Below, in pieces: positions 38,794 through 52,903 of a stretch of DNA of 64,000 nt (position 1 is its first letter; every line of letters starts with the position of its first letter). Where the stretch lies: positions 762 through 64,761 of the forward strand of contig CACNAF010000004.1 of assembly GCA_902618385.1 (NCBI GenBank), written 5' to 3'. Under the pieces are notes generated by a model. It was not told where the DNA came from and searched no databases. It was given only the letters and a program-made list of their open reading frames with translations. Made by a program: the position numbers and the translations under genes. Origin of the DNA: an uncultured Alphaproteobacteria bacterium. Lineage in GTDB: Bacteria; Pseudomonadota; Alphaproteobacteria; HIMB59; GCA-002718135.

Positions 38794-40113
38794 CTAAATT
38801 TTTTCTCCTGCTGGTTTTCCATATCCAACATTTTTTTTCCCATATCGTCTTACTCTCACATTACATTGTTCTGCATGGCCAATAAAACCTTCTAAATGTG
38901 AAAGTCTAGATCCATATTCTCCGATGAGAGTTGCAGCTTCATCTGTCATAATCTTTTGATAAGTATGGGTTTTAATGAACTTACCAACCCACAAACCACC
39001 AGTATATCTTCCAGCTTTTTTAGTTGGAAGAGTATGGTTAGTGCCTATGACTTTATCACCATTAGCAACATTAGTTCTGGCGCCCAAAAATAGAGCTCCA
39101 TAAGATGTCATATTTTCTAAAAACCAATCATCTTTTTTTGTCATAACTTGTACGTGCTCTGAAGCTATTTCATTTGCTTTAGATAACATCTCCTCATAGG
39201 TATCACATAAAATTATTTCTCCATAATCTCTCCAGCTTGTACTTGCTGTTTCTTTAGTAGGTAAAATTTCTAAAATTCTATCAATTTCTTTAAATGTTTC
39301 TTCTGCAAGTTTTCTTGAGTTCGTTATCATCACAGCAGGAGAATTATATCCATGTTCAGCTTGTCCTAATAAGTCTGTTGCACATATTTCACCATCAACA
39401 GTTTCATCTGCAATTACCATTGTTTCAGTTGGACCAGCAAATAAATCGATACCAACTTTGCCATACAATTGTCTTTTCGCTTCAGCAACAAATGCATTGC
39501 CAGGTCCAACAAGCATATCTACAGGTCTAATAGTTTCTGTACCAATAGCCATAGCACCAACTCCTTGCATTCCTCCCAAAACATAAATTTCGTGAGCACC
39601 ACCCATTTTCATTGCAGTAACGACAGCTGGATTTGGCTTACCTTTAAAAGGTGGTGTAGTAGCAACAATTCTTGGAACCCCAGCAACAGAGGCAGTAACA
39701 ACTGACATATGAGCAGAAGCTACCATTGGGAATTTTCCGGCAGGTACATAGCAACCTACTGCTTGTACAGGTATATTCTTATGACCTAGAATAACACCTG
39801 GATGCGTTTCTACTTCTAATTCACTTAAAGTTTTAAGTTGTGCTTCTGCAAATGATCGCACTTGTTTTTGAGCAAATTTAATATCTTCTTTGTCTTCGTC
39901 AGAGACTTCACTCATTAATTGATTTATTTGATCTTCACTTAATCGAAAACTATCTGGTGAATAGTTATCAAATTTTTGTGATAATTCTCTAACATATTTA
40001 TCACCTTCTGATTCAATTTTACTTAATGTTTCCTCAACAATTTTTTTTACTTTATCATTATCTTCAATTCTTTGTTTTTCATCTAAACCTTTTTTTAAAT
40101 ATTCAATTGCCAT
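38794..40113 (-). CDS. Histidinol-dehydrogenase-family 4-electron alcohol dehydrogenase, non-his-operon paralogue (candidate sulfopropanediol 3-dehydrogenase HpsN)
   Basis: 439 aa. HisD catalytic and Zn motifs are retained ([27 protein letters not shown]). The context is catabolic, not histidine biosynthesis. The HpsN assignment is an inference. Confidence 0.8.
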
Positions 40114-40115
40114 AA

Positions 40116-41210
40116 TTATTTTTTATGAATTAATTTAAAGATATCAATGCCTATTTGATCTAATATGTGTGCTATGTCGATTGGTACCCAATTTTCTCTA
40201 ATTCGCCCTTCATGATGTAAATAAAAATCCATAACTCTTATTGTGACAGCTTTACCAGTACCTTGGTAGCCTAGCCACTCATTAGAACCATGTATACACT
40301 CAATACTTTGCCAGCCTGATGTCATTGAATAATTACCATCAGCTATTTCTATATAATGACCAATTTTCCAATAATCTCTCTCTTTAAATGTAAACCTAAA
40401 AGGTAATTGATGATGATCAACATATCCTTTTAAACCTCTTGCTGTACCAATACCGCAAGGTCCGTACCACATCATTTTAGGATGCCAGAATTCTTTTTGA
40501 GGATGATTTAGTAATTTATCTCTAACGTATTCATGCGTTGATCCAGGATCTGTTTCTGGTTTTATATTTAAACTTCTCTGCATTGTTAAAGCTTGATTCA
40601 TCGAATTGATGGACAACTTATCATCCATATTTTCAAATGTTGTACCATCACCGGTTATAGGACCAGGCCACATTCCTTCTACTCCTAATGATTTATTTAT
40701 TGGCCAAAATCCTGCCTGACGAATAAAATCTAGAGTATCAATCAAAATATGTGATTGAATGATTTTATTATCTTTAATTTGATGCGCTTCACATATTCTT
40801 AAATGTATAGTTTTGCCATGAGCAGGAACATTAAGCCATGGATTAACAAAAGTCCCAGTTAAATGAGCTATTGTTGAAACAAAAACTGAGTTTTGAAAAG
40901 AACCCCCAAGAATTAGGTTATCCCTTCTCTCAAGATCAGGAAATGCATTTAAAAGCGGTTTCCATAATTTTTCTGTTATTTCAGAAATGCCTTTTAAGTC
41001 ATTAAGTGGATGGAAGGTTCTTATTTCTGCATCATCATGATACGCATCACTAATATTTTTATTAATATTTTCTGAATTGGATTCAGCTATATTTTTTAAA
41101 AGAATTCTGATTTTTTTTTTATTTGCTATATTTATCTTTGGATTTAAATTAATTACTTCAGTGCTTCCTTCTTTTTTTATTCCAGTATTAAAATTTTCAA
41201 TTTCTGTCAT
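40116..41210 (-). CDS. Tandem (two-domain) SnoaL-like/ester-cyclase NTF2-fold protein, paralogue 1
   Basis: 364 aa. Domain 1: [15 protein letters not shown]...GTF...[24 protein letters not shown]. Domain 2: [16 protein letters not shown]...[20 protein letters not shown]. Both fit the ester-cyclase pattern FPD...G.H.G...TGk......f....gkI.E.W...D...ll.QiG. Confidence 0.6.
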
Positions 41211-41260
41211 AATTTACTTAGTTTCAGTTACTCACAGTTTAGGCTCAATATTTAATTGAT

Positions 41261-41299
41261 TTATTCAATATTTTGAATAATATTCATTAAAAATGCATA
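41261..41299. promoter_or_regulatory. Cluster of overlapping palindromes in the divergent promoter region (candidate operator)
   Basis: TTATTCAA-TATT-TTGAATAA (41261-41280), TGAATA-A-TATTCA (41274-41286), then TATTCATTAAAAATGCATA (41281-41299). The last motif recurs upstream of the LacI/SBP genes. Confidence 0.3.
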
Positions 41300-41318
41300 A
41301 AATATAATTTTTCTTAAT

Positions 41319-42290
41319 ATGTCAATAAATATAGAAAGTCGTCTTGCGAGATTTAATGATTTAATACCAAGTAAGGTTCCTTTTGTTGAGGGTAAATTAA
41401 AAGGACATCAAGATAGATTGAATTACTCATTAGTGGGTCCTGGCGTAAGTGAAGATTCTAAACAAAATGTAAAAATTGCTGAGGAGCATGGGTTTAATAT
41501 TGGGGCAGTAAGTGCTGCACCGATGAATGGTTCTGGGCTTCATAGTCATACAACAGCTGAGGTGTTTATTATCTTTTCTGGTTCATGGCGTTTTTATTGG
41601 GGACCAGATGGAAAAGAGGGTGAGGTTATTTTACATAAAGGAGATGTCGCTTCATTTCCTACTAATATGTTTAGAGGATTTCAAAATGTTAGTGATCAAC
41701 AAGCATTAATGTTTGTAGTTTTAGGTGAAAATGATCCTGGAGTAATTACATGGACTCCTTCATTGTTAAAAAAAGCAAAAGAAACTGGAATGGTTCTTTT
41801 AAATGATAACTCTCTTATTGATTTAGAAAAAAATCAAATACCTGATGGTAAAAAAGCAATAGAGCCAATCACAGATAATGAATTAACACAATTTGATCAT
41901 TACACTTCTGAAGAAATTGAAAAATTTGTAATTCGTTATGCAGATCAAAAAAATTATTTTCTAGATGACGAACATTATAATTCAAATTCTATTTTAAATT
42001 ATCTAGATGATTTCACTATTCATAATAAAGAATTTAAACCATATATTAGTCATAAAACTGGATTTGGACTTACTCTTCTTGAAGGTAATAATGCTCATAT
42101 ACATTCTTACACCTCATCAAAATCTGAAGTTTATTTATGTTTGGCGGGAGAATGGGAAATTACATGTAATGATAAAAAGGTGTTAATTGGCCCTAGAGAT
42201 GCCTTCTCCCCTCCAAAAAACTCTACAAGAAGCCTTAAAAATATAAGTAGCGATAAAGGTAGCATTTATATAGTGCGCCAAAAAAATTAA
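41319..42290 (+). CDS. Bicupin (two cupin barrels) protein of unknown function
   Basis: 323 aa. The N-terminal barrel has a full metal motif, GSGLHSHTTAEVFIIFSG (G..H.H...E......G). The C-terminal barrel has AHIHSYTSSKSEVYLCLAGEW. Confidence 0.65.
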   Translation: MSINIESRLARFNDLIPSKVPFVEGKLKGHQDRLNYSLVGPGVSEDSKQNVKIAEEHGFNIGAVSAAPMNGSGLHSHTTAEVFIIFSGSWRFYWGPDGKEGEVILHKGDVASFPTNMFRGFQNVSDQQALMFVVLGENDPGVITWTPSLLKKAKETGMVLLNDNSLIDLEKNQIPDGKKAIEPITDNELTQFDHYTSEEIEKFVIRYADQKNYFLDDEHYNSNSILNYLDDFTIHNKEFKPYISHKTGFGLTLLEGNNAHIHSYTSSKSEVYLCLAGEWEITCNDKKVLIGPRDAFSPPKNSTRSLKNISSDKGSIYIVRQKN

Positions 42291-42293: not shown

Positions 42294-43265
42294 ATGAAGG
42301 GTTTTGATAAAAAATTTAGAGATCTACCCGATTATATACTAAAAATTACACATCAAATTTGGGAAGACAAGGATGTTGAGTCAATAAGAGAATATTATGC
42401 AAAAGGAATTCCAGTTAGGTCCCCTGCTGGAGTTGTGTATGGACCTGATGCAGTTGTGAAAGCAACTTATGCAACTTTAGAAGAATTTCCTGACCGTCAA
42501 CTTTTAGGTGAAGATGTCATATGGATAGGTAATGAACATGATGGGTATTTATCTTCGCACCGAATTTTAACTAGAGCAACCCACTTAAATGATGGTGTTT
42601 ATGGAAAAGCAACAGGAAAAAAACTTATTTATAGAGTAATTGCAGATTGTGCATGCAAGGATAATCAAGTGTATGATGAATGGCTTGTTAGAGATCAGGG
42701 CGCAATCGTAAGACAACTTAATTTAGATCCAAAAAAATATGCAAAACAAATAATTGATAATCAAGGGGGTGTTGAAAATTGCGCAGTTCCTTTTAACAAA
42801 AATACGCCTTTGGATTTAAAATATTCACAATTAAATTTACCGGAAAAAAATTCAGGTTATGAATATGCAGAAGTCCTAAAATCTATATTTAATAAAGATA
42901 TTAATATAGTTGATAAAAAATATGATAGAGCAATAAATCAAGAATTACCAGGCGGATTGAAAGCTTACGGAGTAGAAGAAGTAAAAACTTTTTGGACTTC
43001 TCTATTGTCATCATTTCCTGATGCAACATTTTCAATTGATCATGTTAGCTATTTAGAAGAACCAAATCAGTACAGAAAGGCAGCTATTAGATGGTCACTT
43101 AATGGTGTTCATTCGGGTTCGGGATATTTTGGAGTACCTAGTCAAGCAGCAGTTCATGTCATGGCTATATCACATGTTGAATTTGGACCACGAGGTATTA
43201 AAAATGAATGGATTTTGTTTGATGAAACTGAAATTTGGAAACAAATTTTGATGAAAACAGGATAG
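42294..43265 (+). CDS. Tandem SnoaL-like/ester-cyclase NTF2-fold protein, paralogue 2 (more divergent)
   Basis: 323 aa. EEFPDRQLLGEDVIWIG...ATHLNDGVYGKATGKKLIYRVIADCACKDNQVYDEWLVRD, then a second SFPDATFSIDHVSYL...GVHSG...VHVMAISHVEFGPRGIKNEWILFDE. Confidence 0.55.
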   Translation: MKGFDKKFRDLPDYILKITHQIWEDKDVESIREYYAKGIPVRSPAGVVYGPDAVVKATYATLEEFPDRQLLGEDVIWIGNEHDGYLSSHRILTRATHLNDGVYGKATGKKLIYRVIADCACKDNQVYDEWLVRDQGAIVRQLNLDPKKYAKQIIDNQGGVENCAVPFNKNTPLDLKYSQLNLPEKNSGYEYAEVLKSIFNKDINIVDKKYDRAINQELPGGLKAYGVEEVKTFWTSLLSSFPDATFSIDHVSYLEEPNQYRKAAIRWSLNGVHSGSGYFGVPSQAAVHVMAISHVEFGPRGIKNEWILFDETEIWKQILMKTG

Positions 43266-43272: not shown

Positions 43273-44403
43273 TTGAACACGAAAATTTTAACAACACATG
43301 TAGGAAGTTTACCTCGTTCTAAAGCTTTATCAGAATTACTTTTTGCAAAAGATAAGGGAGATAGTTTTAGTGAAAATGAATTTGATGATGTTGTAAAACA
43401 AAATGTAAGTGACATTGTCAAAAAACAACTTGATACAGGTATTGATTTTGTCAGTGATGGTGAAATGAGTAAAATCAGTTATGCTACATATGTTAAAGAT
43501 AGAATTAATGGTTTTTCCGGTGAAAGTGAAAGAAGAGCGCCAGCTGACTTAGATGCATTTCCTGAATATAAAGATAAAATTGCTAAAAGTGGGGGAACAC
43601 CTACTTATACCCGACCCTGTTGTACTGGAGAACTCTCTATTAAAAATAATTATGATCTTTTAAAAGATATAAATAATCTATCTTCTGCATTAAATGCTAA
43701 TAATCATACTAAGGGCTTTATGAATGCTGCTTCACCAGGAGTCATAAATGTTTTTTTACCAAATAAATTTTACAAAAATGATGACGAGTACCTAAGTAAG
43801 CTTAGCGTGATTATGGCAGAAGAATATCAACAAATTACTTATAATAATTTATTCTTGCAAGTTGATTGTCCAGATTTAGCCCTAGCAAGGCATATGAATT
43901 TTAAAGAATTAGATGAAAAAAGTTTTTTGCTGCGAGCAGAAAAACAAATTGAAGCTCTTAATCTTTCACTGGCATCAGTTCCACAAGACAAAATTAGAAT
44001 GCATATCTGCTGGGGAAATTATGAAGGACCTCATACCTTTGATATTGGTTTGGAAAAAATTTTACCAATAGTACTTAAGGCAAAAAGTAAATATTTATTA
44101 ATTGAGTCTTCTAATCCAAGACATGCTCATGAATGGAAAGTTTTTGAAAAGATCAAATTGCCACAAGATAAAGTTATTGTGCCAGGTGTTATTGATTCTA
44201 CTTCAAATTTTGTTGAACACCCGGAAGTTGTTGCTGATCGGTTAAAACAATTTTCTACTTTTGTACCAAAGGAGCAAATTATGGCTGGTACAGATTGTGG
44301 TTTTAGTACTTTTGCTGGATTTGGAAAAGTTGATGAAAAAATTTGTTATGAGAAATTAATTTCGTTAGTTAAGGGCACTCAAATAGCATCTAAAACGATT
44401 TGA
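43273..44403 (+). CDS. Cobalamin-independent methionine synthase catalytic-domain-only (core-MetE / MetE-II family) protein, copy 1
   Basis: 376 aa, TTG start in the track. THVGSLPR N-terminus, and Zn-ligand pattern H-x-C (RMHICWGNYEG), IESSNPRH, DCG (AGTDCGFS). Confidence 0.7.
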   Translation: MNTKILTTHVGSLPRSKALSELLFAKDKGDSFSENEFDDVVKQNVSDIVKKQLDTGIDFVSDGEMSKISYATYVKDRINGFSGESERRAPADLDAFPEYKDKIAKSGGTPTYTRPCCTGELSIKNNYDLLKDINNLSSALNANNHTKGFMNAASPGVINVFLPNKFYKNDDEYLSKLSVIMAEEYQQITYNNLFLQVDCPDLALARHMNFKELDEKSFLLRAEKQIEALNLSLASVPQDKIRMHICWGNYEGPHTFDIGLEKILPIVLKAKSKYLLIESSNPRHAHEWKVFEKIKLPQDKVIVPGVIDSTSNFVEHPEVVADRLKQFSTFVPKEQIMAGTDCGFSTFAGFGKVDEKICYEKLISLVKGTQIASKTI

Positions 44404-44404
44404 T

Positions 44405-46232: not shown

Positions 46233-47474
46233 ATGTTTTTAAAAAAATTAATTTTAGGTGGATTAACAGCACTATTCTTCAGCTCATCTTTGTTTGCGGC
46301 TGATTGTGGTCCTAATGGACAATCCATCCGAATTTTAGCAAGTGATTTTCCAGCAATTCACGCAATAGCAAATTCTGCTGAAAGCAATTGTGCAGGATCT
46401 GCATCTGAATTCACTCGCAATCATACTACTGAAGCGCGCCAAATAATGAACGCTGCTCAAACACCAGATCCAGCAGAGTATACATCAGTGATTGTAGCTA
46501 ACTCTACTCTTGTTCAGTTAATGAATGATGGACTAGTGAGACCATTAAATGACCTAGTTGAAAAATATGGTGGCAACTTAAAATCTAATCAACTTATAAC
46601 TATTGATGGTAAAATAATGGCTATAGCATTCATGGCTAATTCTCAGCACATGTATTATAGAACAGATATTTTAGATAAAGCTGGAGTTGATGGAATGCCA
46701 GCAACTTATGATGAAATAATTTCTGCTGCTGAAAAAATACGTTCAGCTGGTATCATGGAGCATCCACTTGTAATGAATCTTAAAGTAGGATGGAATGTTG
46801 GAGAAGTATTTAATACTATATACTTAGCACATGGTGGAGAATTCTTTAAGCAAGGTAGTGCAGAAGCATCTATTAATAACGCTAAAGGTATTGCGGCTCT
46901 AGAAACAATGAAAGCTCTAGTTGAGTATGCTCATCCTGATCATTTAACACAGGCATCTGATGATACGCAAGGATTATGGGAAGCTGGTCAAGCTGCAATT
47001 GGCTTTATGTGGGGTTCTCGTGGAGGAGTTATACTAGATAATGAAGGTTCTTCAGCTGAGGTGACTTCAAATACTGTTCTATCTGCAGCTCCAACTGTTA
47101 CTGGTGGTTCAATACCAGGAGCAACTTTATGGTGGGATGGAATAACTATAGCAACTAACGTGTCTGACAGTGAAGCAGAAGCAACGTTTGCAGCACTTGT
47201 AAGTGGTATGACTTCAGAAATGGTTGCTGCTAATAATGATGATGCAATTTGGTTAATTGATGGTTTTAAACCTGGTCCAGCTGCAGCAGGAGTGTCTGCA
47301 ACTGCTCAAGGCGGCGCTAAATCTTATCCAATGTTTGCTCAAATGGGATTATTGCACAATGCATTAGGTGCAGAGCTAGTTGATTTTTTAAAGGGAGCAG
47401 AAAGTGCTGAACAAGCACTTAGTGATGTAGAGGCTGTTTACGAAACAGCTGCTAAAGACGCAGGTTATCTGTAG
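46233..47474 (+). CDS. ABC transporter substrate-binding protein, family 1 (CUT1: sugar / glycerol-3-phosphate type)
   Basis: 413 aa. Signal peptide (…SSSLFAADC), SBP_bac_1-like composition, and a strong RBS (GGAGGAAAC-ATG). Confidence 0.85.
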   Translation: MFLKKLILGGLTALFFSSSLFAADCGPNGQSIRILASDFPAIHAIANSAESNCAGSASEFTRNHTTEARQIMNAAQTPDPAEYTSVIVANSTLVQLMNDGLVRPLNDLVEKYGGNLKSNQLITIDGKIMAIAFMANSQHMYYRTDILDKAGVDGMPATYDEIISAAEKIRSAGIMEHPLVMNLKVGWNVGEVFNTIYLAHGGEFFKQGSAEASINNAKGIAALETMKALVEYAHPDHLTQASDDTQGLWEAGQAAIGFMWGSRGGVILDNEGSSAEVTSNTVLSAAPTVTGGSIPGATLWWDGITIATNVSDSEAEATFAALVSGMTSEMVAANNDDAIWLIDGFKPGPAAAGVSATAQGGAKSYPMFAQMGLLHNALGAELVDFLKGAESAEQALSDVEAVYETAAKDAGYL

Positions 47475-47496: not shown

Positions 47497-47524
47497 AAGG
47501 GGTTTTCAAATTTGAAAACCCCTT
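47497..47524 (+). terminator. Perfect 28-nt palindrome (14-bp stem) between the SBP and permease genes: intra-operon attenuator/terminator
   Basis: AAGGGGTTTTCAAA|TTTGAAAACCCCTT, 23 nt after the SBP stop. Its G/C-rich base stands out in an AT-rich spacer. Confidence 0.6.
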
Positions 47525-47554: not shown

Positions 47555-48589
47555 ATGAAGCACAGCACATTCTTATTATTCATCTTTCCTTCATTAAGTG
47601 TAATGTTTTTATTTATTGCAATACCTATAGTTTCTGTTTTTATTCAATCCCTACATATAGAACATAAACAAGTAATAATTGTTTCAGAAAATTGTGATCC
47701 TTTTGGATGTGAGACGACAACATCTGTGGATACTGAAGCTTCTGCGAAGTTAAAAGAAAAAGCACCTCTTGGTAAATTTAATGGATTTAAAACGTATTCA
47801 AACAGAATGCATTTTGCATTTGATGAAATAGGAGAGGCTTGGAATAGCTCGGATAGTTTTATAGTTTTTGTAAAAAAAATATATAATTACCCCTTATATA
47901 GAGCGCTTAGCTTTACTCTTACTTACACCTTTGTAGTTACTCCGTTTGTTTTATTTCTTGGTTTTTTAGTTGCTCTTGGAGTCAATAATCTTCCTAAGTT
48001 GTTAAAAGGTCCAACAATTTTTGCATCTCTTCTTCCAATGATAGTTACACCTCTTGTGGGTTCATTGATATTGTTTTGGATGGTTGATGGCGATGGTGTT
48101 ATTGGAGCCACACTCCAAAAATTATTTAATGATAATTCTCTGAGCTTGAAAGCATCACCTGTGCTTACCTGGGTCATGTTGATGGTCTATGGTATATGGC
48201 ATTTGATGCCGTTTAGTTTTATTGTTTTTTATGCAGGTCTTCAAACAGTTCCTCATGAAACAATTGAGGCAGCAACTATAGATGGTGCATCTAAATTTCA
48301 AAGAACACGCCATGTCGTTATTCCTCATTTAATGCCACTTGCTATTTTTATAACTTTAATACTTTTAATGGATAATTTTAGAGTTTTTGAACCAATAATA
48401 AGTTTTAGAGCAGAAGCCCACGCTACCTCAATATCCTGGTTAATATGGAATCATTTGCGTGAAAGTGCTTACCCTCTATATAATGCAGCAGGCGCAACAT
48501 CTATGATTACTATTTTTTGTGTAGGAATTTTACTTTTGCCAGTGCTAATTCGAACATGGAGAGATTTTAATGAAAAAAATAAGGGTTAG
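47555..48589 (+). CDS. CUT1 ABC transporter permease (UgpA/MalF-like)
   Basis: 344 aa. Multi-TM protein with the EAA loop region ETIEAATIDGASKFQRTRHVVIPHL. Confidence 0.85.
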   Translation: MKHSTFLLFIFPSLSVMFLFIAIPIVSVFIQSLHIEHKQVIIVSENCDPFGCETTTSVDTEASAKLKEKAPLGKFNGFKTYSNRMHFAFDEIGEAWNSSDSFIVFVKKIYNYPLYRALSFTLTYTFVVTPFVLFLGFLVALGVNNLPKLLKGPTIFASLLPMIVTPLVGSLILFWMVDGDGVIGATLQKLFNDNSLSLKASPVLTWVMLMVYGIWHLMPFSFIVFYAGLQTVPHETIEAATIDGASKFQRTRHVVIPHLMPLAIFITLILLMDNFRVFEPIISFRAEAHATSISWLIWNHLRESAYPLYNAAGATSMITIFCVGILLLPVLIRTWRDFNEKNKG

Positions 48590-48595: not shown

Positions 48596-49477
48596 ATGAA
48601 TACAAAAATTGAAAATAAATTAACCCCAGTTCGAATTATTGCTTTTGTATTCGTGGCTCTTTGGTTGATTGTTGCTATGTTTCCTTTTATCTGGACATTG
48701 TGGGGGTCTTTTAAAGTACAAGCTGATTTTTTTTCAAAAGCTGACTGGGCAAATGCAATATTTGGCTTTCATACTGAAAAACAAACAGGTAATTTTTTTA
48801 CTATTGATGGATATTATGGCTCTTGGATAGAAGAGGAATTTTGGCGCGCTGTTATTAACACAAGCATAGTAGTATTTTTTACAGTTTTAATTTCTCTTAC
48901 ATTTGGAACTTTAGGAGGCTATGCTCTTGCAAGGTCTACTTATCGATATGCCTTCTGGATTTTAATGGCAGGTCTTATTTTTCGTGCGATGCCTCATATG
49001 ACTTTAGTTTCAGGATATCTTCAACCTTTTTTTGCTTGGAATGTTTGGGGAATTTTACCTACAACAATAATTGTACTTGTTGCAATTAATCAGCCTTTTA
49101 CTCTGTGGATGTTACATTCATTTTTTTTAAATATACCAAAAGATTTAGATGAAAGCGCTATGTGCGATGGCTGTAATAGATTTCAAGCATTTAGATATGT
49201 GATCATTCCTATAATGTGGCCGGGTGTAATAACTACTGGATTATTTAGTTTCCTTCTTGCTTACAATGATTTTACAGTTACATCTATGTTGCTTTCAGAT
49301 GAAAATGAAACAATGATCCCAGCAATTGCTAGCTTTTTAGGTACCGTACAGGAAGAAGGTAAAGTAATGTATGCTGTAGCTGCCGTTGTTTCAGCAACTG
49401 CTCCATTATTCTTTCTTGTAATGTTTTTTCAAAGACAGATTGTTAGCGGATTAACAGCTGGAGCAGTTAAAGGTTAA
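48596..49477 (+). CDS. CUT1 ABC transporter permease (UgpE/MalG-like)
   Basis: 293 aa. EAA loop DLDESAMCDGCNRFQAFRYVIIPIM. Confidence 0.85.
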   Translation: MNTKIENKLTPVRIIAFVFVALWLIVAMFPFIWTLWGSFKVQADFFSKADWANAIFGFHTEKQTGNFFTIDGYYGSWIEEEFWRAVINTSIVVFFTVLISLTFGTLGGYALARSTYRYAFWILMAGLIFRAMPHMTLVSGYLQPFFAWNVWGILPTTIIVLVAINQPFTLWMLHSFFLNIPKDLDESAMCDGCNRFQAFRYVIIPIMWPGVITTGLFSFLLAYNDFTVTSMLLSDENETMIPAIASFLGTVQEEGKVMYAVAAVVSATAPLFFLVMFFQRQIVSGLTAGAVKG

Positions 49478-49482
49478 AAATT

Positions 49483-50556
49483 ATGAAACCTGAAGAGTTA
49501 AAAAAATATTTTGAAAATTATCAATTAGCTACTCAAAATTTTAACAAAAATTCAATAAAAAATTCTCTAGTTAAATATTTTTCTGAAAATTCGGTGTTTC
49601 ATTTCTGCTATCCTTTTGGAACATTTAATGGTTTAGATAAATTGTTAACTAATTGTATAAACCCCCTTTTAGATAGCATTCCTGATCTTGAAAGAAGAGA
49701 TATGATTGTTATGGCAGGCACAACACCTGAAGGTAAAGATTGGTTAGGCACTATGGGCAATTATATGGGAACTTTTTTAAAATCATTTTTAGATATTCCG
49801 CCAACAGGAAATTTAGTTCATATGCGTTATCATGAGTTTTTCCAAATAGAAAATAATCAAATTATAGAAATGCAATCAATTTGGGATCTACCTGAATTGA
49901 TGATGCAGGCAAATGCATGGCCAATGAGTCCTCAGCTAGGATCTTTTTTATGCACACCATCTCCTATGACAGGAGACGGCTTAAAGATAGAAGGTGATGG
50001 ATCAAAAAATTTTGACATTGTAATAAATATGCTTCGAGATATGGTTTTACACCCTAGTAATCCAAATCCACAAGTTATGAATTTAGATAAATATTGGCAC
50101 CCCAGATTTAATTGGTACGGACCAGTTGGAATTGGCACAGCAAGAGGTATCGAAGGATTTCGCCATTGGCATCAAATACCTTTTTTGCGTGCAATGCCTG
50201 ATAGAAAGGGAGGCTCATCAAATGATAGTTTAAAAAATGAGGGGTTGCAGGATATGCAAACACATTGGATATATGAAGGCGATTATGTTTGTGAAACTGG
50301 TTGGCCAAATATGCGATCTACAATTTCTCAAGATGGATGGATGGGTATTGCTCCATCAAATCAAATTATAGAAATGCGGAGTTTAGATTTTTGGAGATTA
50401 GAAAATGGTCTTATCAGAGAGAATTGGGTTTTAGTAGACCTTCTCGATGTTTACCAGCAAATAGGTGTTAATGTTTTTGATAGAATAAAAGAATTTAACA
50501 AAGCGAGAAACATTGGAGATATTAATATTTCTAAAGGACTTGGGTCAATAAAATAA
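49483..50556 (+). CDS. Tandem SnoaL-like/ester-cyclase NTF2-fold protein, paralogue 3
   Basis: 357 aa. Shares with paralogue 1 the strings (S/A)(I/F)PDLERRD, TGDG, WYGP.GIGTARG.(K/E)G(Y/F) and (R/L)IRENWV..D.....QIG. Lies directly after the permease genes, where an ATPase gene would be expected. Confidence 0.6.
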   Translation: MKPEELKKYFENYQLATQNFNKNSIKNSLVKYFSENSVFHFCYPFGTFNGLDKLLTNCINPLLDSIPDLERRDMIVMAGTTPEGKDWLGTMGNYMGTFLKSFLDIPPTGNLVHMRYHEFFQIENNQIIEMQSIWDLPELMMQANAWPMSPQLGSFLCTPSPMTGDGLKIEGDGSKNFDIVINMLRDMVLHPSNPNPQVMNLDKYWHPRFNWYGPVGIGTARGIEGFRHWHQIPFLRAMPDRKGGSSNDSLKNEGLQDMQTHWIYEGDYVCETGWPNMRSTISQDGWMGIAPSNQIIEMRSLDFWRLENGLIRENWVLVDLLDVYQQIGVNVFDRIKEFNKARNIGDINISKGLGSIK

Positions 50557-50598
50557 TAAGTTATATGATTTCTTGTTCCATAAAATTGAAAGGATAAA

Positions 50599-51258
50599 AT
50601 GGATTATAAAGCACTTTTATTTGGATCTATTGGAACACTTATTGAATCTTCTAATATTCAACGTAATTCATTTAATGAAGCTTTTAAAGAAGCTGGTCTA
50701 GATTGGTATTGGGATGAGCAAGATTATAAAATTTTGTTAAAAAAATCTGGTGGGACAAAAAGAGTAGAAGATTTTGCTGAAAAAAATAATGTTAATGTAA
50801 ATGCTTCACAAATTAGAAATAGAAAAACAGAAATTTTTAGTTCATTCATTATTAAGAATAAACAAAAATTAAGAAAAAGTGTTGATGAGATAATTAAGTA
50901 TACAAAAGATAACAATATTAAACTTGCTTTCTCAACTTCTACAACTTTAAATAATGTCGATGCAGTATTTGAAAGTCTTTCTAGTCAAATTGCTAAAGAA
51001 GATTTTGACTTTATTGGCAATAAATCGTTTGTTAAAAATGAAAAACCCCATCCAGAAATATACAAAGTAACTTTAGATAAACTAAATTTACACCCAGAAG
51101 ATTGTCTTGCAATAGAAGATACTGAAGAAAGTAGTAACTCTGCCGTAAACGCTGGAATTAAGTGTATAGGGTTTCCAGGAGATTATCACCTAGAAGATAA
51201 TTTTCAGATGTGCATCAAAAAAATGAATTTATTAGATCAATCTATCTTTTCATTGTAA
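50599..51258 (+). CDS. HAD-fold protein (beta-phosphoglucomutase-like subfamily) lacking the motif-I aspartates
   Basis: 219 aa. Motif I reads LLFGSIGTLIES instead of FDxDGTLxDS. Motifs II (FSTST), III (KPHPEIY) and IV (EDTEESSNSAVNAG) are recognisable. Confidence 0.65.
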   Translation: MDYKALLFGSIGTLIESSNIQRNSFNEAFKEAGLDWYWDEQDYKILLKKSGGTKRVEDFAEKNNVNVNASQIRNRKTEIFSSFIIKNKQKLRKSVDEIIKYTKDNNIKLAFSTSTTLNNVDAVFESLSSQIAKEDFDFIGNKSFVKNEKPHPEIYKVTLDKLNLHPEDCLAIEDTEESSNSAVNAGIKCIGFPGDYHLEDNFQMCIKKMNLLDQSIFSL

Positions 51259-51270
51259 ATAATCAGATCA

Positions 51271-52038
51271 ATGTTTCTAAAAAATTTTAATGTAAAAAAT
51301 AAGACTGCTCTTGTTACAGGATCAGGCAAAGGCATCGGTAAAGCATGTGCTATAGCATTAGCAGAAGCAGGTGCAAATGTAATTATTCTTAGTCGTACAG
51401 AAAAAGATCTTTTGATTGTTAAAAACAAAATTCAAAAACTCAAAAAGAAATGTAGTTATTATGTGTGCGATGTAACTAATTTAAAAGAAATAAAAAAAAT
51501 ATTTTCTGAAATCAATAAATTAGACATTTTAGTAAATAATGCTGGTACAAACAGACCTGAATATTTTACCAAAATTAAAAGAAAAGACATGAGTGAAGTT
51601 GTTGATCTTAATATTAAAGCATCATTCGATATTGCTCAATTAGCTACAAAAGTTATGCTTAAATCAAAAAATAGAAAAAAAATCGGTGGATCAATAATAA
51701 ATATCTCTTCTCAATTAGGTAAAGTTGGAGCTCCTCTTAGAAGTGTTTATAATATGACTAAATTTGGCGTTGAAGGTCTCACTAGAGGAATGGCTATTGA
51801 TTTGTCTAAATATAACATTAGAGTTAACTCTGTTTGTCCTACATTTGTGGAAACACCAATGGTCAAAAAATTTTTTAAAGATAAAAGTTTTAAAAAATCT
51901 GTAATTGAAAACATACCTTTGGGGAAAGTAGCAACAGAAAGTGATATTGCTAGTGCTGTAGTGTATCTTGCTTCAGATGCCGCATCAATGATGACTGGTT
52001 CATCACTAGTAATTGATGGAGGATGGACAGCTAAATAA
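51271..52038 (+). CDS. Short-chain dehydrogenase/reductase (classical SDR)
   Basis: 255 aa. TGSGKGIG cofactor motif, NNAG, catalytic S...YNMTK, and PTFVETP. Confidence 0.9.
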   Translation: MFLKNFNVKNKTALVTGSGKGIGKACAIALAEAGANVIILSRTEKDLLIVKNKIQKLKKKCSYYVCDVTNLKEIKKIFSEINKLDILVNNAGTNRPEYFTKIKRKDMSEVVDLNIKASFDIAQLATKVMLKSKNRKKIGGSIINISSQLGKVGAPLRSVYNMTKFGVEGLTRGMAIDLSKYNIRVNSVCPTFVETPMVKKFFKDKSFKKSVIENIPLGKVATESDIASAVVYLASDAASMMTGSSLVIDGGWTAK

Positions 52039-52045
52039 TCAAAAA

Positions 52046-52903
52046 TTAATTTTCTTTATTTATAAAATAAGTTGCTACGATTACAATTACACCACCAATA
52101 AAAGTAATTAAAGTTGGTATTTCATAAAAAATTATAAATGTTAACAACACACCAAATACAGGAAATAAAGCGTAAAATGGAAATACTCTATTAACAGGAT
52201 ACATCCTATACAAATAAAACATCGACATATGTGCAGCAATTGAAACAAAGATACCTGAATGCAATATTAATAACCATGACTGAAAACTAATATTTTTTAT
52301 TTCGTTTATCGTTTGTCCTTCAAATATTGATGATGAAATAATTAGTAATACAAATCCAACTAGTCCCATTACTGCATTTGTGAGAGTAACTTCTAAATCT
52401 TTTAGGTACCTGGAAAATACTTGTGCACTAGCATAGAAGAATGCCATTAACGTTATTAAGATTAATGCAAAAATTTCATTTCTTATCAATGGATCAAAGC
52501 CTAACAAAATAATGCCAAAAAAAGAAATAAATATAAGTACCCATTTTTTAATACTTACTTTCTCTTTTAAAAAAAATGAGCTTAATAATATTGCAAATGG
52601 TACAGCCAGTTGAGAACCAATAATTATCGGAGAAACTATGTTTGCTTCATTTAAAGATAATGTCATAAAAACATTTGCCAAAAAACCCATAGAAATTGAA
52701 AAAAAGAGAAGTGGTAACCAGTATTTTTTTTCAGGAATTCTAAATTGCCAAAAAGGCAAAAGACATATGAAAACCACTAACATTCTTAAACTTCCCATTA
52801 ATAATGGGGGAACATTTTCATTAAAAATAACTTTCTGAACAGGGTAGGCACTTCCAAATAAAAAAGTGATTATTAAAATTAAAAAGTAATGTCTTAAAAG
52901 CAT
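52046..52903 (-). CDS. EamA/DMT-family transporter
   Basis: 285 aa, about 10 TM segments, two EamA-like halves. Downstream of pta on the same strand. Confidence 0.8.
   Translation of the reverse strand: MLLRHYFLILIITFLFGSAYPVQKVIFNENVPPLLMGSLRMLVVFICLLPFWQFRIPEKKYWLPLLFFSISMGFLANVFMTLSLNEANIVSPIIIGSQLAVPFAILLSSFFLKEKVSIKKWVLIFISFFGIILLGFDPLIRNEIFALILITLMAFFYASAQVFSRYLKDLEVTLTNAVMGLVGFVLLIISSSIFEGQTINEIKNISFQSWLLILHSGIFVSIAAHMSMFYLYRMYPVNRVFPFYALFPVFGVLLTFIIFYEIPTLITFIGGVIVIVATYFINKEN

What the first reader, a model, noticed from the sequence alone, without database searches (positions are those of the whole stretch)
38794..52903. A ~14-kb LacI-associated catabolic island of uncharacterised enzymes, embedded between xsc and pta
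xsc (32793) and pta (to 53826) act consecutively and are often neighbours in sulfoacetaldehyde pathways. Here they are about 18 kb apart. The intervening DNA holds three divergent or convergent transcription units around one LacI regulator: [HisD-like <- tandem ester cyclase], [bicupin -> tandem ester cyclase -> core-MetE-like], and [alpha/beta hydrolase <- lacI]. A fourth unit follows: [SBP -> 2 permeases -> tandem ester cyclase -> nucleophile-less HAD -> SDR], followed by [EamA <- pta]. I know of no described pathway that combines these families. The genomic frame (Xsc, Pta, taurine-type aminotransferase, sulfatase, CysQ) suggests an organosulfur or otherwise anionic polyol/sugar-like substrate. 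This is my best candidate for a previously undescribed metabolic system in the window.
Basis: inference. Interest (0 to 1): 0.8.

Follow-up and report, generated by a model that had tools for sequence, protein, structure and literature searches.

The report
Conserved marine catabolic cassette, substrate unknown
The flagged stretch is a real, self-contained, repressor-controlled set of uptake and breakdown genes that recurs in hundreds of marine bacterial species; nothing found here describes its nutrient, which is probably a methylated sugar-like algal compound, not the sulfur compound its SAR11 neighbours suggested.

Summary
All 15 ORFs lie where stated and belong to the stated families.

Bases 38794-52038 form one cassette: an HpsN-like dehydrogenase, three double-NTF2 "ester cyclases", a bicupin, a MetE-like Zn enzyme, an alpha/beta hydrolase, LacI, a sugar-type ABC importer, a nucleophile-less HAD and an SDR.

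- **Recurrence.** The same set recurs in many SAR11 single-cell genomes. It also occurs in at least 594 matched genomic stretches in a one-genome-per-species collection, in Alpha- and Gammaproteobacteria and some Flavobacteriales. It sits on plasmids and IS-flanked islands. Variant clusters exist in Vibrio and a haloarchaeon.
- **No link to xsc/pta outside SAR11.** xsc, pta, the aminotransferase and alanine dehydrogenase never accompany it in other taxa. The sulfoacetaldehyde setting is therefore SAR11-specific.
- **The "HisD-like" enzyme.** It falls in the DHPS-dehydrogenase (HpsN) clade but has Met in place of the sulfonate-binding His.
- **The MetE-like enzyme.** It keeps every zinc and homocysteine ligand, so it probably moves a methyl group from the substrate onto homocysteine.
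- **Partners outside SAR11.** Frequent extras are a fuconolactonase-like amidohydrolase and pyruvate aldolases.

My best reading is a non-phosphorylative oxidative pathway for a methylated sugar or cyclitol-like algal metabolite. The substrate is unidentified, and I found no description of the cassette in the literature.

The parts
38794..40113 (-). HpsN-clade, Zn- and NAD-dependent four-electron alcohol-to-acid dehydrogenase. This is a third subfamily, neither canonical HpsN nor HisD.
   Evidence: PF00815, 446 bits. The best solved relatives are sulfopropanediol 3-dehydrogenases: 8v35 at 402 bits and 8wwe at 360 bits, against 261 bits for the best HisD. The alignment keeps the Zn and catalytic residues Q251/H254, E319-H320, D353-K354 and H413. 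It reads G-K-F-P-M where HpsN has G-R-Y-A/S-H and the Brucella HisD aligned has G-T-A-S-Y (published HisD consensus G-S-A-P-L). Copies in Rhodobacterales cassettes are 72-80% identical.
40116..41210 (-). Double-NTF2 (SnoaL-like) protein, paralogue 1 ('ester cyclase').
   Evidence: Two SnoaL/SnoaL_2 stretches. 31% identical to paralogue 3. No solved relative by sequence. In other taxa it usually lies divergent from the ABC transporter genes.
41263..41278 (.). Candidate LacI operator (ATTCAATATTTTGAAT) in the divergent promoter region between paralogue 1 and the bicupin.
   Evidence: The pattern ATTCAW-N4-WTGMAT gives 4 matches in the 64-kb window, at three places all inside the island, against 0.67 expected. 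The same motif is present in the SAR11 variant L012. It resembles the TTGCAWWCGWWTGCAA operators of Rhodobacterales cassettes.
41319..42290 (+). Bicupin. The N-terminal cupin has a conserved H75-x-H77-x3-E81 metal site. The C-terminal cupin is degenerate.
   Evidence: Cupin_2 twice. Invariant residues. AF2 model with pLDDT 78. It resembles generic bicupins (MncA, quercetinase, oxalate decarboxylase, salicylate 1,2-dioxygenase, BacB/AerE) at TM about 0.5.
42294..43265 (+). Double-NTF2 (SnoaL-like) protein, paralogue 2.
   Evidence: SnoaL and SnoaL_2. Nearly always next to the bicupin in other taxa.
43273..44403 (+). Single-domain MetE-like Zn enzyme. Probably a homocysteine S-methyltransferase with an unknown methyl donor.
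   Evidence: PF01717, 54 bits. Below every NCBIfam methionine-synthase cut-off. Invariant across 12 taxa: G11-S12-x-P14, D62-G63-E64, Q196-x-D198-x-P200, H244-x-C246, E278 and D341-C342-G343. These align with the homocysteine- and zinc-binding motifs of MetE.
44405..45097 (-). Small alpha/beta-fold serine hydrolase.
   Evidence: Abhydrolase_1. The G-x-S62-M-G-G motif, D183 and H211 are conserved in 31-33 of 33 sequences (32 loci plus the window). The nearest named families are PcaD, MenH, BioH and RutD, all far below cut-off.
45101..46105 (-). LacI-family repressor.
   Evidence: LacI HTH plus Peripla_BP_1/3. Nearest family is RbsR, 183 bits against a cut-off of 382. Present in 35 of 61 non-SAR11 loci.
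46123..46148 (.). Overlapping candidate LacI operators (ATTCATTACATTGCAT and TTGCATATTAATTCAA) between lacI and the SBP gene.
   Evidence: The motif array is conserved in SAR11 variants L012, L015 and L017.
46233..47474 (+). Sugar-type (family 1) periplasmic solute-binding protein.
   Evidence: SBP_bac_1 and SBP_bac_8. The best solved relative scores only 54 bits, and no solved SBP scores above that. The exact sequence is indexed in 756 blocks of the public collection.
47497..47524 (+). Perfect 14+14 nt hairpin (AAGGGGTTTTCAAA/TTTGAAAACCCCTT) between the SBP and the first permease gene. Probably an intercistronic stabiliser or attenuator.
47555..48589 (+). ABC permease 1.
   Evidence: BPD_transp_1. 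UgpA/MalF-like.
48596..49477 (+). ABC permease 2.
   Evidence: BPD_transp_1. 64-80% identical to Rhodobacterales and Rhizobiales cassette copies.
49483..50556 (+). Double-NTF2 (SnoaL-like) protein, paralogue 3. This is the most conserved signature gene of the cassette.
   Evidence: SnoaL twice. 4922 homologues, with about 60% identity across classes. Alignment A2 has 69% mean column identity. AF2 model with pLDDT 77 shows two NTF2 cones. Only single-domain SnoaL/NTF2 structures match it.
50599..51258 (+). HAD-fold protein lacking the Asp nucleophile.
   Evidence: HAD_2. Motif I is F-G-S-I-G-T, and [FI]-G-[SA]-I-G-[TV] in five cassette copies from other taxa.
51271..52038 (+). Classical SDR oxidoreductase.
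   Evidence: adh_short_C2, 203 bits. Below all equivalog cut-offs. Usually sits directly after paralogue 3 and the dehydrogenase in other taxa.

Best explanation
Bases 38794-52038 are one LacI-repressed catabolic cassette for a small, polar, carbohydrate-like metabolite of marine phototrophs. It is an old, horizontally mobile module. In SAR11 it happens to sit inside the sulfoacetaldehyde (Xsc/Pta/aminotransferase/alanine dehydrogenase) neighbourhood.

Proposed working:
1. The effector releases LacI from inverted repeats in the two divergent promoter regions.
2. The family-1 SBP and two permeases import the solute. The ATPase is encoded elsewhere in SAR11.
3. The solute is degraded without phosphorylation, since the cassette has no kinase.
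4. The MetE-like Zn enzyme removes a methyl group from the substrate or an intermediate onto homocysteine, yielding methionine.
5. The HpsN-like dehydrogenase oxidises a -C(OH)-CH2OH terminus to the carboxylate.
6. The SDR makes a ketone.
7. The three double-NTF2 proteins carry out cofactor-free steps typical of that fold, such as retro-aldol or aldol reactions, dehydration, isomerisation or C-N/C-O hydrolysis.
8. The metal-binding bicupin isomerises or oxygenolytically cleaves an enol or enediol intermediate.
9. The serine hydrolase cleaves an ester, lactone or beta-diketone.
10. In most non-SAR11 hosts a fuconolactonase-like amidohydrolase and a class II aldolase (RraA-like or HpcH/GarL-like) finish the route to pyruvate.

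Shown here: gene content, unit conservation, catalytic-residue conservation, and the absence of a link to xsc/pta outside SAR11. Inferred: every chemical step and the nature of the substrate.
For: **Unit conservation.** The order is identical in six SAR11 SAG contigs while the left flank varies. In 61 non-SAR11 loci the counts are HpsN-like 37, paralogue 2 36, LacI 35, SDR 35, bicupin 34, MetE-like 33 and hydrolase 32. Gene orders are shown.

**Mobility.** The cassette lies between transposases in Henriciella. It lies between IS5 and IS6 elements on Octadecabacter arcticus plasmid pOA238_160. It is also on a Ruegeria plasmid.

**Regulation.** Clear LacI-type palindromes TTTTGCAAACGTATGCAAAA and TTTTGCATACGCTTGCAAAA occur in Rhodobacterales cassettes. 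A related motif sits in both SAR11 promoter regions and in divergent SAR11 lineages.

**Carbohydrate-like substrate.** The cassette has a family-1 SBP with MalFG/UgpAE-like permeases and an RbsR-like LacI. In other hosts these are replaced by an SSF symporter and TonB receptors. The accessory amidohydrolase is nearest to L-fucono-1,5-lactonase, and the HpcH protein is nearest to GarL/HpaI.

**Methyl transfer.** All MetE zinc and homocysteine ligands are retained. Variant clusters sit next to soxBDAG-purU in Vibrio pelagius. In Halobellus limi they sit next to an aminomethyltransferase-family gene, VOC dioxygenases and an HpcH aldolase. A SAM methyltransferase is inserted in the Ruegeria copy.

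**Dehydrogenase.** The catalytic and Zn machinery is intact but the specificity loop is altered.
Against: No step has biochemical support, and no enzyme reaches a curated cut-off except the generic HisD domain model.

The SAR11 copy lacks an ATPase, both aldolases and the amidohydrolase. The SAR11 route may therefore be truncated or differ from that of other hosts.

The bicupin, hydrolase and LacI are only 20-36% identical between SAR11 and other taxa. Orthology of function is therefore less secure for them.

The MetE-like enzyme could alkylate or bind a thiol other than homocysteine.

The operator motif was derived from the same sites that were then counted.

An organosulfur substrate is not excluded.
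Confidence: 0.55

Rival explanations
1. Organosulfonate or sulfate-ester pathway. The cassette imports a sulfonated or sulfated sugar or polyol, such as sulfoquinovose, sulfoquinovosyl-glycerol or a DHPS derivative. It converts this to a C2/C3 sulfonate, which Xsc and Pta finish.
For: The dehydrogenase falls in the HpsN clade (402 bits to 8v35). It keeps Lys354, the counterpart of the Lys353 that contacts the sulfonate (PMC11382572). HpsN-family enzymes also oxidise cysteinolate (PMC12814064). In SAR11 the cassette lies between xsc and pta-aminotransferase-ald in most lineages. A sulfatase is in line with the cassette in 4 non-SAR11 loci. SmoF, the sulfoquinovosyl-glycerol binding protein, is among the weak SBP hits (44 bits).
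Against: The sulfonate-binding His126 of the G-R-Y-A/S-H motif is Met or Leu in all 38 cassette sequences examined, including the window's own copy. xsc, pta, the aminotransferase and alanine dehydrogenase were not found beside the cassette in the non-SAR11 loci, and the most frequent neighbour families include no sulfolyase or sulfite-handling gene; suyAB, cuyA, comDE and sulfite exporters were not searched for by name. The cassette has no sulfoquinovosidase and no known sulfoglycolysis enzyme family. SAR11 L012 carries the cassette without the pta block. This reading does not explain the MetE-like enzyme.
Confidence: 0.2
2. Catabolism of a methoxylated carbocycle of the mycosporine/gadusol type. 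NTF2 enzymes hydrolyse the amino-acid substituents or open the beta-hydroxy-ketone ring by retro-aldol. The MetE-like enzyme transfers the enol-ether methyl to homocysteine. The HpsN-like enzyme oxidises the C5 hydroxymethyl that sits next to the tertiary OH. The bicupin cleaves the resulting reductone to 4-carboxy-4-hydroxy-2-oxoadipate. The RraA-like or HpcH aldolase splits that product to pyruvate and oxaloacetate.
For: This single scheme uses every core family. Supporting points:
- The intact homocysteine/Zn site.
- A dehydrogenase for a -C(OH)-CH2OH group.
- The bicupin profile's best solved-structure matches with a named enzymatic activity include quercetinase and acireductone dioxygenase, both enediol-cleaving.
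- RraA-family aldolases in 19 loci and HpcH aldolases in 11.
- The SnoaL fold is an aldol catalyst (established knowledge).
- The distribution is essentially marine and hypersaline. It includes algal-surface genera and a solar-saltern haloarchaeon whose variant cluster adds an aminomethyltransferase-family gene, VOC dioxygenases and an aldolase.
Against: The case is entirely inferential. No known enzyme of such a pathway exists for comparison. The SAR11 copy lacks the aldolase. The RraA-like protein scores only 24 bits against the CHA-aldolase model. Sugar-type transport of zwitterionic mycosporines is unproven. The literature search found nothing.
Confidence: 0.12
3. Lower pathway for a methoxylated aromatic compound, of the gentisate, gallate or protocatechuate meta-cleavage type. 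The steps would be demethylation, cupin ring cleavage, hydrolase, hydratase or decarboxylase, and aldolase.
For: The bicupin resembles salicylate/gentisate 1,2-dioxygenases and quercetinases. The alpha/beta hydrolase is nearest to PcaD/BphD-type enzymes. Amidohydro_2 and RraA are the families of LigI/LigJ and LigK. The Halobellus variant has VOC dioxygenases, ALDH, an HpcH aldolase and a LigM-family aminomethyltransferase.
Against: A sugar-type ABC or SSF transporter and a LacI regulator are atypical for aromatics. The HpsN-like enzyme acts on aliphatic 2-substituted primary alcohols. There is no ring-hydroxylating oxygenase. The amidohydrolase is nearest to a sugar lactonase and the HpcH protein is nearest to GarL. 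Nearly all carriers found are marine; no typical soil aromatic degrader was among the loci.
Confidence: 0.08
4. No pathway at all. The genes are unrelated neighbours packed together by genome streamlining, or they form a biosynthetic 'polyketide cyclase' cluster.
For: SAR11 genomes are dense. PGAP labels the NTF2 proteins 'ester cyclase' with a polyketide GO term.
Against: The same families co-occur across classes, on plasmids and between IS elements. The transporter has a periplasmic binding protein, the hallmark of a bacterial ABC importer. No PKS, ACP or tailoring-gene context exists in any locus examined.
Confidence: 0.03

Closest known systems
HpsN-dependent DHPS catabolism (hpsNOP with SuyAB, CuyA or SlcD-ComDE-Xsc-Pta)
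   Same: The dehydrogenase is a close relative of CpHpsN and RpHpsN, with identical Zn and catalytic residues and the Asp-Lys pair. In SAR11 the Xsc and Pta genes are neighbours.
   Different: The specificity motif is G-K-F/Y-P-M/L instead of G-R-Y-A/S-H, so the sulfonate-binding His is missing. There is no MDR-type HpsP and no sulfolyase, and no TRAP transporter accompanies the cassette; on the Octadecabacter plasmid a TRAP system sits in a separate unit beyond an IS6 element. The partner genes (NTF2 x3, bicupin, MetE-like, hydrolase) are absent from every described DHPS cluster (PMC11382572, PMC11131964).
Non-phosphorylative oxidative sugar pathways (L-fucose/L-rhamnose/glucarate type: SDR dehydrogenase, Amidohydro_2 lactonase, dehydratase, HpcH-family aldolase)
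   Same: LacI plus a family-1 ABC importer, an SDR, a fuconolactonase-like amidohydrolase, a GarL/HpaI-like aldolase and no kinase.
   Different: No enolase-, IlvD- or DapA-type dehydratase is present. Three double-NTF2 proteins, a bicupin, a MetE-like enzyme and an HpsN-like dehydrogenase take the remaining places. The lactonase and aldolase are missing in SAR11.
Cobalamin-independent methionine synthase MetE and its single-domain 'core' relatives; catabolic homocysteine methyltransferases (BHMT, MmuM)
   Same: The C-terminal MetE barrel has His-x-Cys, Glu and Cys zinc ligands and the Ser/Glu/Asp homocysteine contacts. The logic of demethylating a nutrient onto homocysteine is the same as for BHMT, by established knowledge.
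   Different: There is no N-terminal folate-binding domain. It falls below all curated methionine-synthase cut-offs. It is embedded in a LacI-controlled catabolic operon, and its methyl donor is unknown. A second MetE-like gene with a stronger MetE-family score lies at 56397-57497.
SnoaL/AknH polyketide 'ester cyclases' and other NTF2-fold enzymes (LEH, PhzA/B, AclR/SnoaL2)
   Same: The fold of each half matches.
   Different: Here two NTF2 domains are fused in about 320-360 aa. There are three to five paralogues per cluster, in a catabolic and import context, with no PKS. No tandem member has a solved structure.
Protocatechuate 4,5-cleavage lower pathway (LigI, LigJ, LigK)
   Same: Amidohydro_2 and RraA-family proteins follow a ring-cleavage-type metalloenzyme in many non-SAR11 cassettes.
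   Different: Scores to LigK models are only 24 bits. The amidohydrolase is nearer to sugar lactonases. The transport and regulation genes are sugar-type.

Membership tests
HpsN (DHPS 3-dehydrogenase) | HisD fold with Zn ligands Gln/His/Asp/His* and the catalytic Glu-His pair | tested here: met
   Q251, H254, D353, H413 and E319-H320 align with CpHpsN Q248, H251, D352, H411 and E318-H319 (PMC11382572).
HpsN (DHPS 3-dehydrogenase) | G-R-Y-A/S-H motif whose final His (His126) binds the sulfonate | tested here: not met
   The window protein has G-K-F-P-M. The 37 copies from non-SAR11 loci have GKFPM or GKYPL, apart from one with no motif found.
HpsN (DHPS 3-dehydrogenase) | Lys following the Zn-binding Asp (Lys353), which contacts the sulfonate | tested here: met
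   D353-K354 is at least 95% conserved in cassette copies.
HpsN (DHPS 3-dehydrogenase) | Genomic association with hpsO/hpsP and a sulfolyase route (SuyAB, CuyA, or SlcD-ComDE-Xsc) | tested here: not met
   Only xsc and pta are nearby, and only in SAR11. xsc and pta were not found in 61 non-SAR11 loci and no sulfolyase-type family is among their frequent neighbours; one Erythrobacter locus has a Zn-ADH-type gene beside an SDR.
HpsN (DHPS 3-dehydrogenase) | Efficient, specific oxidation of R-DHPS to R-sulfolactate | not testable with these tools
   A SAR11 'HpsN' from strain HTCC1002 had Km 106 mM for DHPS (PMC11131964). I could not establish whether that protein is the orthologue of this one.
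HisD (histidinol dehydrogenase) | G-S-A-P-L loop and Asp-Tyr at the Zn site; higher similarity to HisD than to paralogues | tested here: not met
   The loop reads GKFPM and the Zn site reads D-K. The best HisD scores 261 bits against 402 for HpsN. The TIGR00069 domain model is passed (432 bits against a cut-off of 244); that model covers the fold shared with HpsN, to which this protein is closer.
MetE (cobalamin-independent methionine synthase) | Zinc ligands His-x-Cys, Glu, Cys | tested here: met
   H244, C246, E278 and C342 are invariant in 12 taxa and align to MetE.
MetE (cobalamin-independent methionine synthase) | Homocysteine-binding Ser (GSxP), Glu (xGE) and Asp (QxDxP) | tested here: met
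   S12, E64 and D198 are invariant and aligned.
MetE (cobalamin-independent methionine synthase) | N-terminal barrel that helps bind methyltetrahydrofolate; score above curated cut-offs | tested here: not met
   The protein is 376 aa with no Meth_synt_1 domain. Its best NCBIfam score is 99 bits against a cut-off of 406.
SnoaL-type polyketide ester cyclase | NTF2/SnoaL fold | tested here: met
   Pfam SnoaL, two per protein. Foldseek hits to IdmH, ChaU, AclR and SnoaL2.
SnoaL-type polyketide ester cyclase | Location in a type II PKS or anthracycline biosynthetic cluster | tested here: not met
   No PKS or ACP gene in any of 96 loci. The context is an importer plus catabolic enzymes.
LacI-regulated sugar-type ABC uptake operon | LacI HTH plus periplasmic-binding-fold effector domain, and palindromic operators in target promoters | tested here: met
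   Domains. Classical operators in Rhodobacterales copies. Related inverted repeats in both SAR11 promoter regions, although that motif count is partly circular.
LacI-regulated sugar-type ABC uptake operon | Complete transporter: SBP, two permeases and an ATPase | tested here: inconclusive
   The SBP and two permeases are present. No orthologous ATPase is in the 64-kb window, although it is present in non-SAR11 cassettes. A shared ATPase elsewhere in the genome is possible.
HAD phosphatase/phosphomutase | Motif I D-x-D with the nucleophilic Asp | tested here: not met
   The motif is F-G-S-I-G-T, conserved as [FI]-G-[SA]-I-G-[TV] in other taxa.
Xsc-Pta sulfoacetaldehyde module (as a functional partner of the cassette) | Co-occurrence of the cassette with xsc and pta across genomes | tested here: not met
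   xsc passes its equivalog model in the window. However, xsc and pta are absent from all non-SAR11 loci and from SAR11 L012.

The most novel reading that the evidence does not exclude
The cassette is the first catabolic pathway for mycosporine-like amino acids or gadusol-type sunscreens or osmolytes, or for another methoxylated cyclitol made by phototrophs. In this reading the double-NTF2 enzymes act as reverse 'cyclases' or C-N hydrolases. A MetE-like enzyme harvests the O-methyl group directly as methionine, which would give sulfur-auxotrophic SAR11 a way to regenerate methionine from homocysteine while consuming an abundant surface-ocean compound.
Probability: 0.12. Interest if true: 0.9.

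Novelty: new variant of a known kind. Interest (0 to 1): 0.68.

Why it matters
SAR11 genomes are extremely small, yet many lineages spend about 13 kb on this cassette. The binding-protein sequence is among the frequently recovered ones in public marine data, being indexed in 756 blocks. The same module is spread through roseobacters, Hyphomonadaceae, OM60/Halieaceae, Granulosicoccus, Arenicella and others, and it moves on plasmids.

A widely shared, regulated uptake-and-degradation system points to a dissolved organic compound of ecological weight whose turnover is currently unaccounted for in marine carbon budgets.

It also offers three enzymological unknowns:
- A large, highly conserved family of fused double-NTF2 proteins with no characterised member.
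- An HpsN-like dehydrogenase with a new specificity loop. This matters because 'hpsN' counts in metagenomes and metatranscriptomes are used as a proxy for DHPS cycling, and this subfamily, which NCBI's pipeline labels hisD on the two plasmids examined, could be miscounted if such proxies rest on similarity alone.
- A homocysteine methyltransferase with an unknown methyl donor.

Tried and rejected
- **Housekeeping hisD.** Rejected on motif and on relative scores.
- **Canonical DHPS dehydrogenase.** Rejected because His126 is missing.
- **The SBP being the SAR11 glucose-binding protein SAR11_0769, whose structures are published.** No close solved relative was found; the best hit is 54 bits (PMC11485210).
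- **Sequence search of solved structures for the NTF2 protein and the bicupin.** No hits for the single sequences. A bicupin profile gave only generic cupin hits.
- **AF2 models plus Foldseek for NTF2 paralogue 3 and the bicupin.** The folds were confirmed, but no functionally specific neighbour emerged. The afdb50 library was unavailable.
- **Literature.** I searched for SnoaL + sulfoquinovose, ester cyclase + SAR11, SnoaL/histidinol dehydrogenase/cupin/LacI, mycosporine catabolism, and ester cyclase/RraA/methionine synthase II. Nothing relevant was found.
- **First guess at a shared operator (TATTCATTA-N4-TGCATA).** It matched only one site. I replaced it with ATTCAW-N4-WTGMAT after comparing SAR11 lineages.
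- **Search of the window for the accessory genes** (ATPase, RraA, HpcH, Amidohydro_2, SSF, cassette-type sulfatase). None was found.
- **Applying the published kinetics of HTCC1002 'CuHpsN' to this protein.** Not done, because orthology could not be shown.
- **Compositional evidence for recent transfer.** None; island GC is 0.28-0.36, like the rest of the window.

Full report
**1. Observation**

Pfam and NCBIfam confirm every family call:
- a histidinol-dehydrogenase-fold protein;
- three proteins that each carry two SnoaL/NTF2 domains, only 22-31% identical to one another;
- a bicupin;
- a 376-aa protein with only the C-terminal MetE barrel;
- a small alpha/beta hydrolase;
- LacI;
- a family-1 solute-binding protein with two permeases;
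- a HAD-fold protein;
- an SDR;
- EamA;
- a PTA_PTB phosphotransacylase.

Xsc passes its equivalog model (956 bits against a cut-off of 676). The genes after pta are a class III aminotransferase, which passes the AptA model, and alanine dehydrogenase. That is the classical taurine/sulfoacetaldehyde set.

The HAD protein does lack the nucleophile. Its motif I is F-G-S-I-G-T, and the same holds for cassette copies from unrelated taxa. Base composition shows no anomaly.

**2. It is a unit, and not a SAR11 peculiarity**

The exact SBP sequence is indexed in 756 blocks of the public collection. Six SAR11 single-cell contigs show the same order from the dehydrogenase to alanine dehydrogenase. Their left flank differs: either Na/Ca exchanger with CysQ, or a PAPS-reductase-like gene with CysN/C.

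The NTF2 paralogue in the transporter operon has 4922 homologues. It is about 60% identical in Erythrobacter, Henriciella, Yoonia and the gammaproteobacterium Agarilytica. A ten-sequence alignment has 69% mean column identity.

I scanned one genome per species.

tblastn with all window proteins and independent clustering of ORFs gave these counts for the 61 non-SAR11 loci:

| Family | Loci |
|---|---|
| HpsN-like dehydrogenase | 37 |
| NTF2 paralogue 2 | 36 |
| LacI | 35 |
| SDR | 35 |
| Bicupin | 34 |
| MetE-like protein | 33 |
| Alpha/beta hydrolase | 32 |

Many of these loci are cut by contig ends. Of the 29 loci with full flanks, 19 have at least five of the seven families.

A typical order, in Planktomarina, is: <NTF2-1 >ATPase >SBP >perm >perm >dehydrogenase >NTF2-3 >SDR >LacI >NTF2-2 >bicupin >hydrolase >MetE-like.

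Frequent accessories are:
- the ABC system (18 loci) or an SSF symporter (8 loci), sometimes with TonB-dependent receptors;
- an RraA-family protein (19 loci);
- an Amidohydro_2 protein (16 loci);
- an HpcH/HpaI aldolase (11 loci).

The cassette is bracketed by transposases in Henriciella. It lies between IS5 and IS6 elements on plasmid pOA238_160 of Octadecabacter arcticus. It also sits on a Ruegeria plasmid. NCBI's automatic annotation on these plasmid records gives only generic names there.

Reduced or variant clusters exist:
- In Vibrio pelagius, four NTF2 proteins and the ABC system sit next to soxBDAG-purU.
- In the solar-saltern archaeon Halobellus limi, five ester cyclases sit with a MetE-like gene, an ABC system, ALDH, an aminomethyltransferase-family gene, two VOC dioxygenases and an HpcH-type aldolase.

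**3. What does not travel with it**

xsc, pta, the aminotransferase, alanine dehydrogenase, EamA, CysQ and the GMC oxidoreductase are not linked to the cassette outside SAR11. The only traces are weak (25-31%) hits to unrelated family members in a few loci, including a distinct GMC oxidoreductase upstream of the dehydrogenase in three Rhodobacterales loci. SAR11 lineage L012 has the cassette followed by other genes.

SAR11 lineages also differ in gene order (HAD-SDR-NTF2 against NTF2-HAD-SDR). Their SBPs are only 39-46% identical to the window's.

The conserved unit therefore ends at the SDR gene (52038). EamA belongs to the SAR11 pta block. The window contains no orthologue of the cassette ATPase, the RraA or HpcH aldolases, the amidohydrolase or the SSF symporter.

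**4. The individual enzymes**

*Dehydrogenase.* The best solved relatives are the DHPS 3-dehydrogenases CpHpsN (402 bits) and RpHpsN (360 bits). The best true HisD scores 261 bits.

The residue-level alignment keeps the zinc ligands, the catalytic Glu-His pair and the Asp-Lys pair. The published discriminating motif is G-R-Y-A/S-H in HpsN, whose last His binds the sulfonate, and G-S-A-P-L in HisD (PMC11382572). Here it reads G-K-F-P-M, and GKFPM or GKYPL in the copies from other taxa.

A His five residues downstream (H135) is conserved in this subfamily only, by comparison with the four solved sequences shown. The enzyme is 72-80% identical between SAR11 and Rhodobacterales cassettes. This is a tightly constrained third subfamily.

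HpsN-family enzymes are known to oxidise DHPS, sulfolactaldehyde and L-cysteinolate (PMC11382572, PMC12814064). The safe inference is a four-electron oxidation of a primary alcohol next to a carbon bearing OH or NH2, with a different third recognition group.

*MetE-like protein.* Twelve taxa share the following invariant motifs: GS-x-P, DGE, Q-x-D-x-P, H-x-C, a Glu, and DCG. The profile alignment to MetE structures places these on the homocysteine-binding and zinc-binding motifs.

The folate-binding N-terminal half is absent, and no curated methionine-synthase model is passed. The most economical reading is a homocysteine S-methyltransferase whose methyl donor is the nutrient or an intermediate. 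This is the logic of BHMT in betaine catabolism, by established knowledge.

*Bicupin.* H75, H77 and E81 are invariant. The usual motif-2 His is replaced by a conserved F-R-G-F, and the second barrel is degenerate. The model (pLDDT 78) matches bicupins in general: MncA, quercetinase, oxalate decarboxylase, salicylate dioxygenase and BacB/AerE, at TM about 0.5. Dioxygenase and isomerase roles cannot be separated.

*Hydrolase.* The Ser-Asp-His triad is conserved.

*NTF2 proteins.* The model shows two cones (pLDDT 77). Only single-domain SnoaL, LEH and PhzA/B-type structures match.

*Accessory enzymes.* The amidohydrolase is nearest to L-fucono-1,5-lactonase. The HpcH protein is nearest to GarL and HpaI. 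The RraA-like protein is near nothing in particular.

**5. Regulation**

Rhodobacterales and Rhizobiales cassettes have textbook LacI palindromes in the divergent promoter region: TTTTGCAAACGTATGCAAAA and TTTTGCATACGCTTGCAAAA.

In SAR11 both divergent regions (NTF2-1|bicupin and lacI|SBP) carry arrays of ATTCAW-N4-WTGMAT and TTGMAT-N4-ATTCAW. This is an AT-drifted version of the same half-sites, and it is conserved in lineages whose proteins are only 70-85% identical.

In the whole window the first pattern occurs at three places, all within the island, against 0.67 matches expected. This supports one regulon for the four units. The pattern was derived from these same sites, so the count is partly circular.

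A perfect 14+14 hairpin follows the SBP gene.

**6. Mechanism**

I commit to a LacI-controlled, non-phosphorylative oxidative route for a methylated, carbohydrate-like algal or cyanobacterial metabolite, at about 0.55 confidence. The steps are set out in the best explanation. The evidence for each element is:
- *Carbohydrate-like substrate:* the transporter types, the RbsR-like regulator, the sugar-lactonase-like and GarL-like accessories, and the absence of kinases.
- *Methylated substrate:* the intact homocysteine/Zn site, and the C1 or demethylase genes beside the variant clusters.
- *Marine phototroph origin:* the host range.

All chemistry is inferred.

The organosulfur reading keeps about 0.2. 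In its favour are the HpsN clade, the retained Lys, the SAR11 neighbours and the occasional sulfatase.

One specific scheme uses every family, and I rate it at about 0.12. It is the degradation of mycosporine/gadusol-type methoxy-cyclohexenones:
1. the O-methyl group goes to homocysteine;
2. the hydroxymethyl next to a tertiary OH is oxidised to a carboxylate;
3. the enediol is cleaved by the cupin to 4-carboxy-4-hydroxy-2-oxoadipate;
4. an aldolase splits this to pyruvate plus oxaloacetate;
5. SnoaL-type enzymes act as hydrolases or retro-aldolases.

A methoxy-aromatic lower pathway gets about 0.08. Chance juxtaposition or biosynthesis gets about 0.03.

**7. Novelty and significance**

The kind of system, a repressor-controlled uptake and catabolic operon, is ordinary. 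The pathway, its signature double-NTF2 family, the altered HpsN subfamily and the donor of the MetE-like enzyme are undescribed as far as the solved-structure, curated-family and literature searches reach.

It occupies about 1% of a SAR11 genome (taking the 1.2-1.4 Mb size quoted in PMC11485210) and is shared by hundreds of marine species, so identifying its substrate would add a missing flux to marine dissolved-organic-matter cycling.

A practical corollary follows. Genes of this subfamily are labelled hisD by NCBI's automatic annotation on the two plasmids examined and might be counted as hpsN in surveys, and neither label is justified.

Noticed in passing
window 56397-58989 (- strand): A second single-domain MetE-like gene has a much stronger MetE-family score than the first (139 bits Pfam; 219 bits to a 'methionine synthase' model, still below cut-off). 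It overlaps the end of a sulfatase-family gene whose nearest model is PehA, a phosphoric/sulfuric ester hydrolase (411 bits against a cut-off of 900). The pair is conserved in other SAR11 SAGs. It is only 24% identical to the cassette MetE-like protein.
   Followed up: partly
window 34563-36167 (- strand): A GMC oxidoreductase lies directly after xsc. It is BetA-like but below the choline-dehydrogenase cut-offs (574 against 605). It could be an isethionate- or choline-type dehydrogenase feeding Xsc. A distinct GMC oxidoreductase sits upstream of the HpsN-like gene in three Rhodobacterales cassettes (L058, L075, L084).
   Followed up: partly
window 36242-38792, compared with L002, L003, L005 and L006 positions 1-2560: The left junction of the cassette is variable among SAR11 cells. 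Here it holds a Na/Ca exchanger, CysQ, a short APS-kinase-like ORF (137 aa) and an unassigned 131-aa ORF. In other SAGs it holds a PAPS-reductase-family gene and a CysN/CysC fusion.
   Followed up: no
L006 2540-3826 (SAR11 SAG GCA_902556365.1): At the same position this cell carries a different HisD-fold gene, 47% identical to the window's, with the loop G-R-Y-N-N. This is yet another non-canonical variant of the HpsN motif.
   Followed up: partly
window 47497-47524: A perfect 28-nt palindrome (AAGGGGTTTTCAAATTTGAAAACCCCTT) lies between the SBP gene and the first permease gene. It is G+C-rich for this genome. It is likely an mRNA hairpin that uncouples SBP and permease expression.
   Followed up: no
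window 45655-45670 (inside lacI): A third exact match to the operator-like pattern ATTCAW-N4-WTGMAT lies within the lacI coding sequence. It could be an auxiliary operator or a chance match.
   Followed up: no
L093 (Vibrio pelagius plasmid) and L095/L096 (Halobellus limi plasmid): Variant clusters built around four or five 'ester cyclase' genes lack the HpsN-like gene. They sit beside one-carbon or demethylation genes: soxBDAG-purU in Vibrio, and an aminomethyltransferase-family gene plus VOC dioxygenases and an HpcH aldolase in Halobellus. The family thus reaches a haloarchaeon.
   Followed up: partly
L094 11107-11637 (Ruegeria sp. THAF33) and L092 2557-3042 (Octadecabacter): Some cassettes also contain a single-domain ester cyclase of about 160-176 aa. 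Structural-genomics entries for single-domain SnoaL-like proteins from roseobacters (3f8h from Silicibacter sp. TM1040, 3kkg from Jannaschia sp. CCS1) appeared among the fold matches. They might be such cassette members.
   Followed up: no
window 53945-55285: The aminotransferase next to pta passes the NCBIfam equivalog for the Caulobacter omega-aminotransferase AptA (587 bits against a cut-off of 500). It does not pass a taurine-specific model, so its assignment as taurine:pyruvate aminotransferase rests on context (alanine dehydrogenase, pta, xsc).
   Followed up: no
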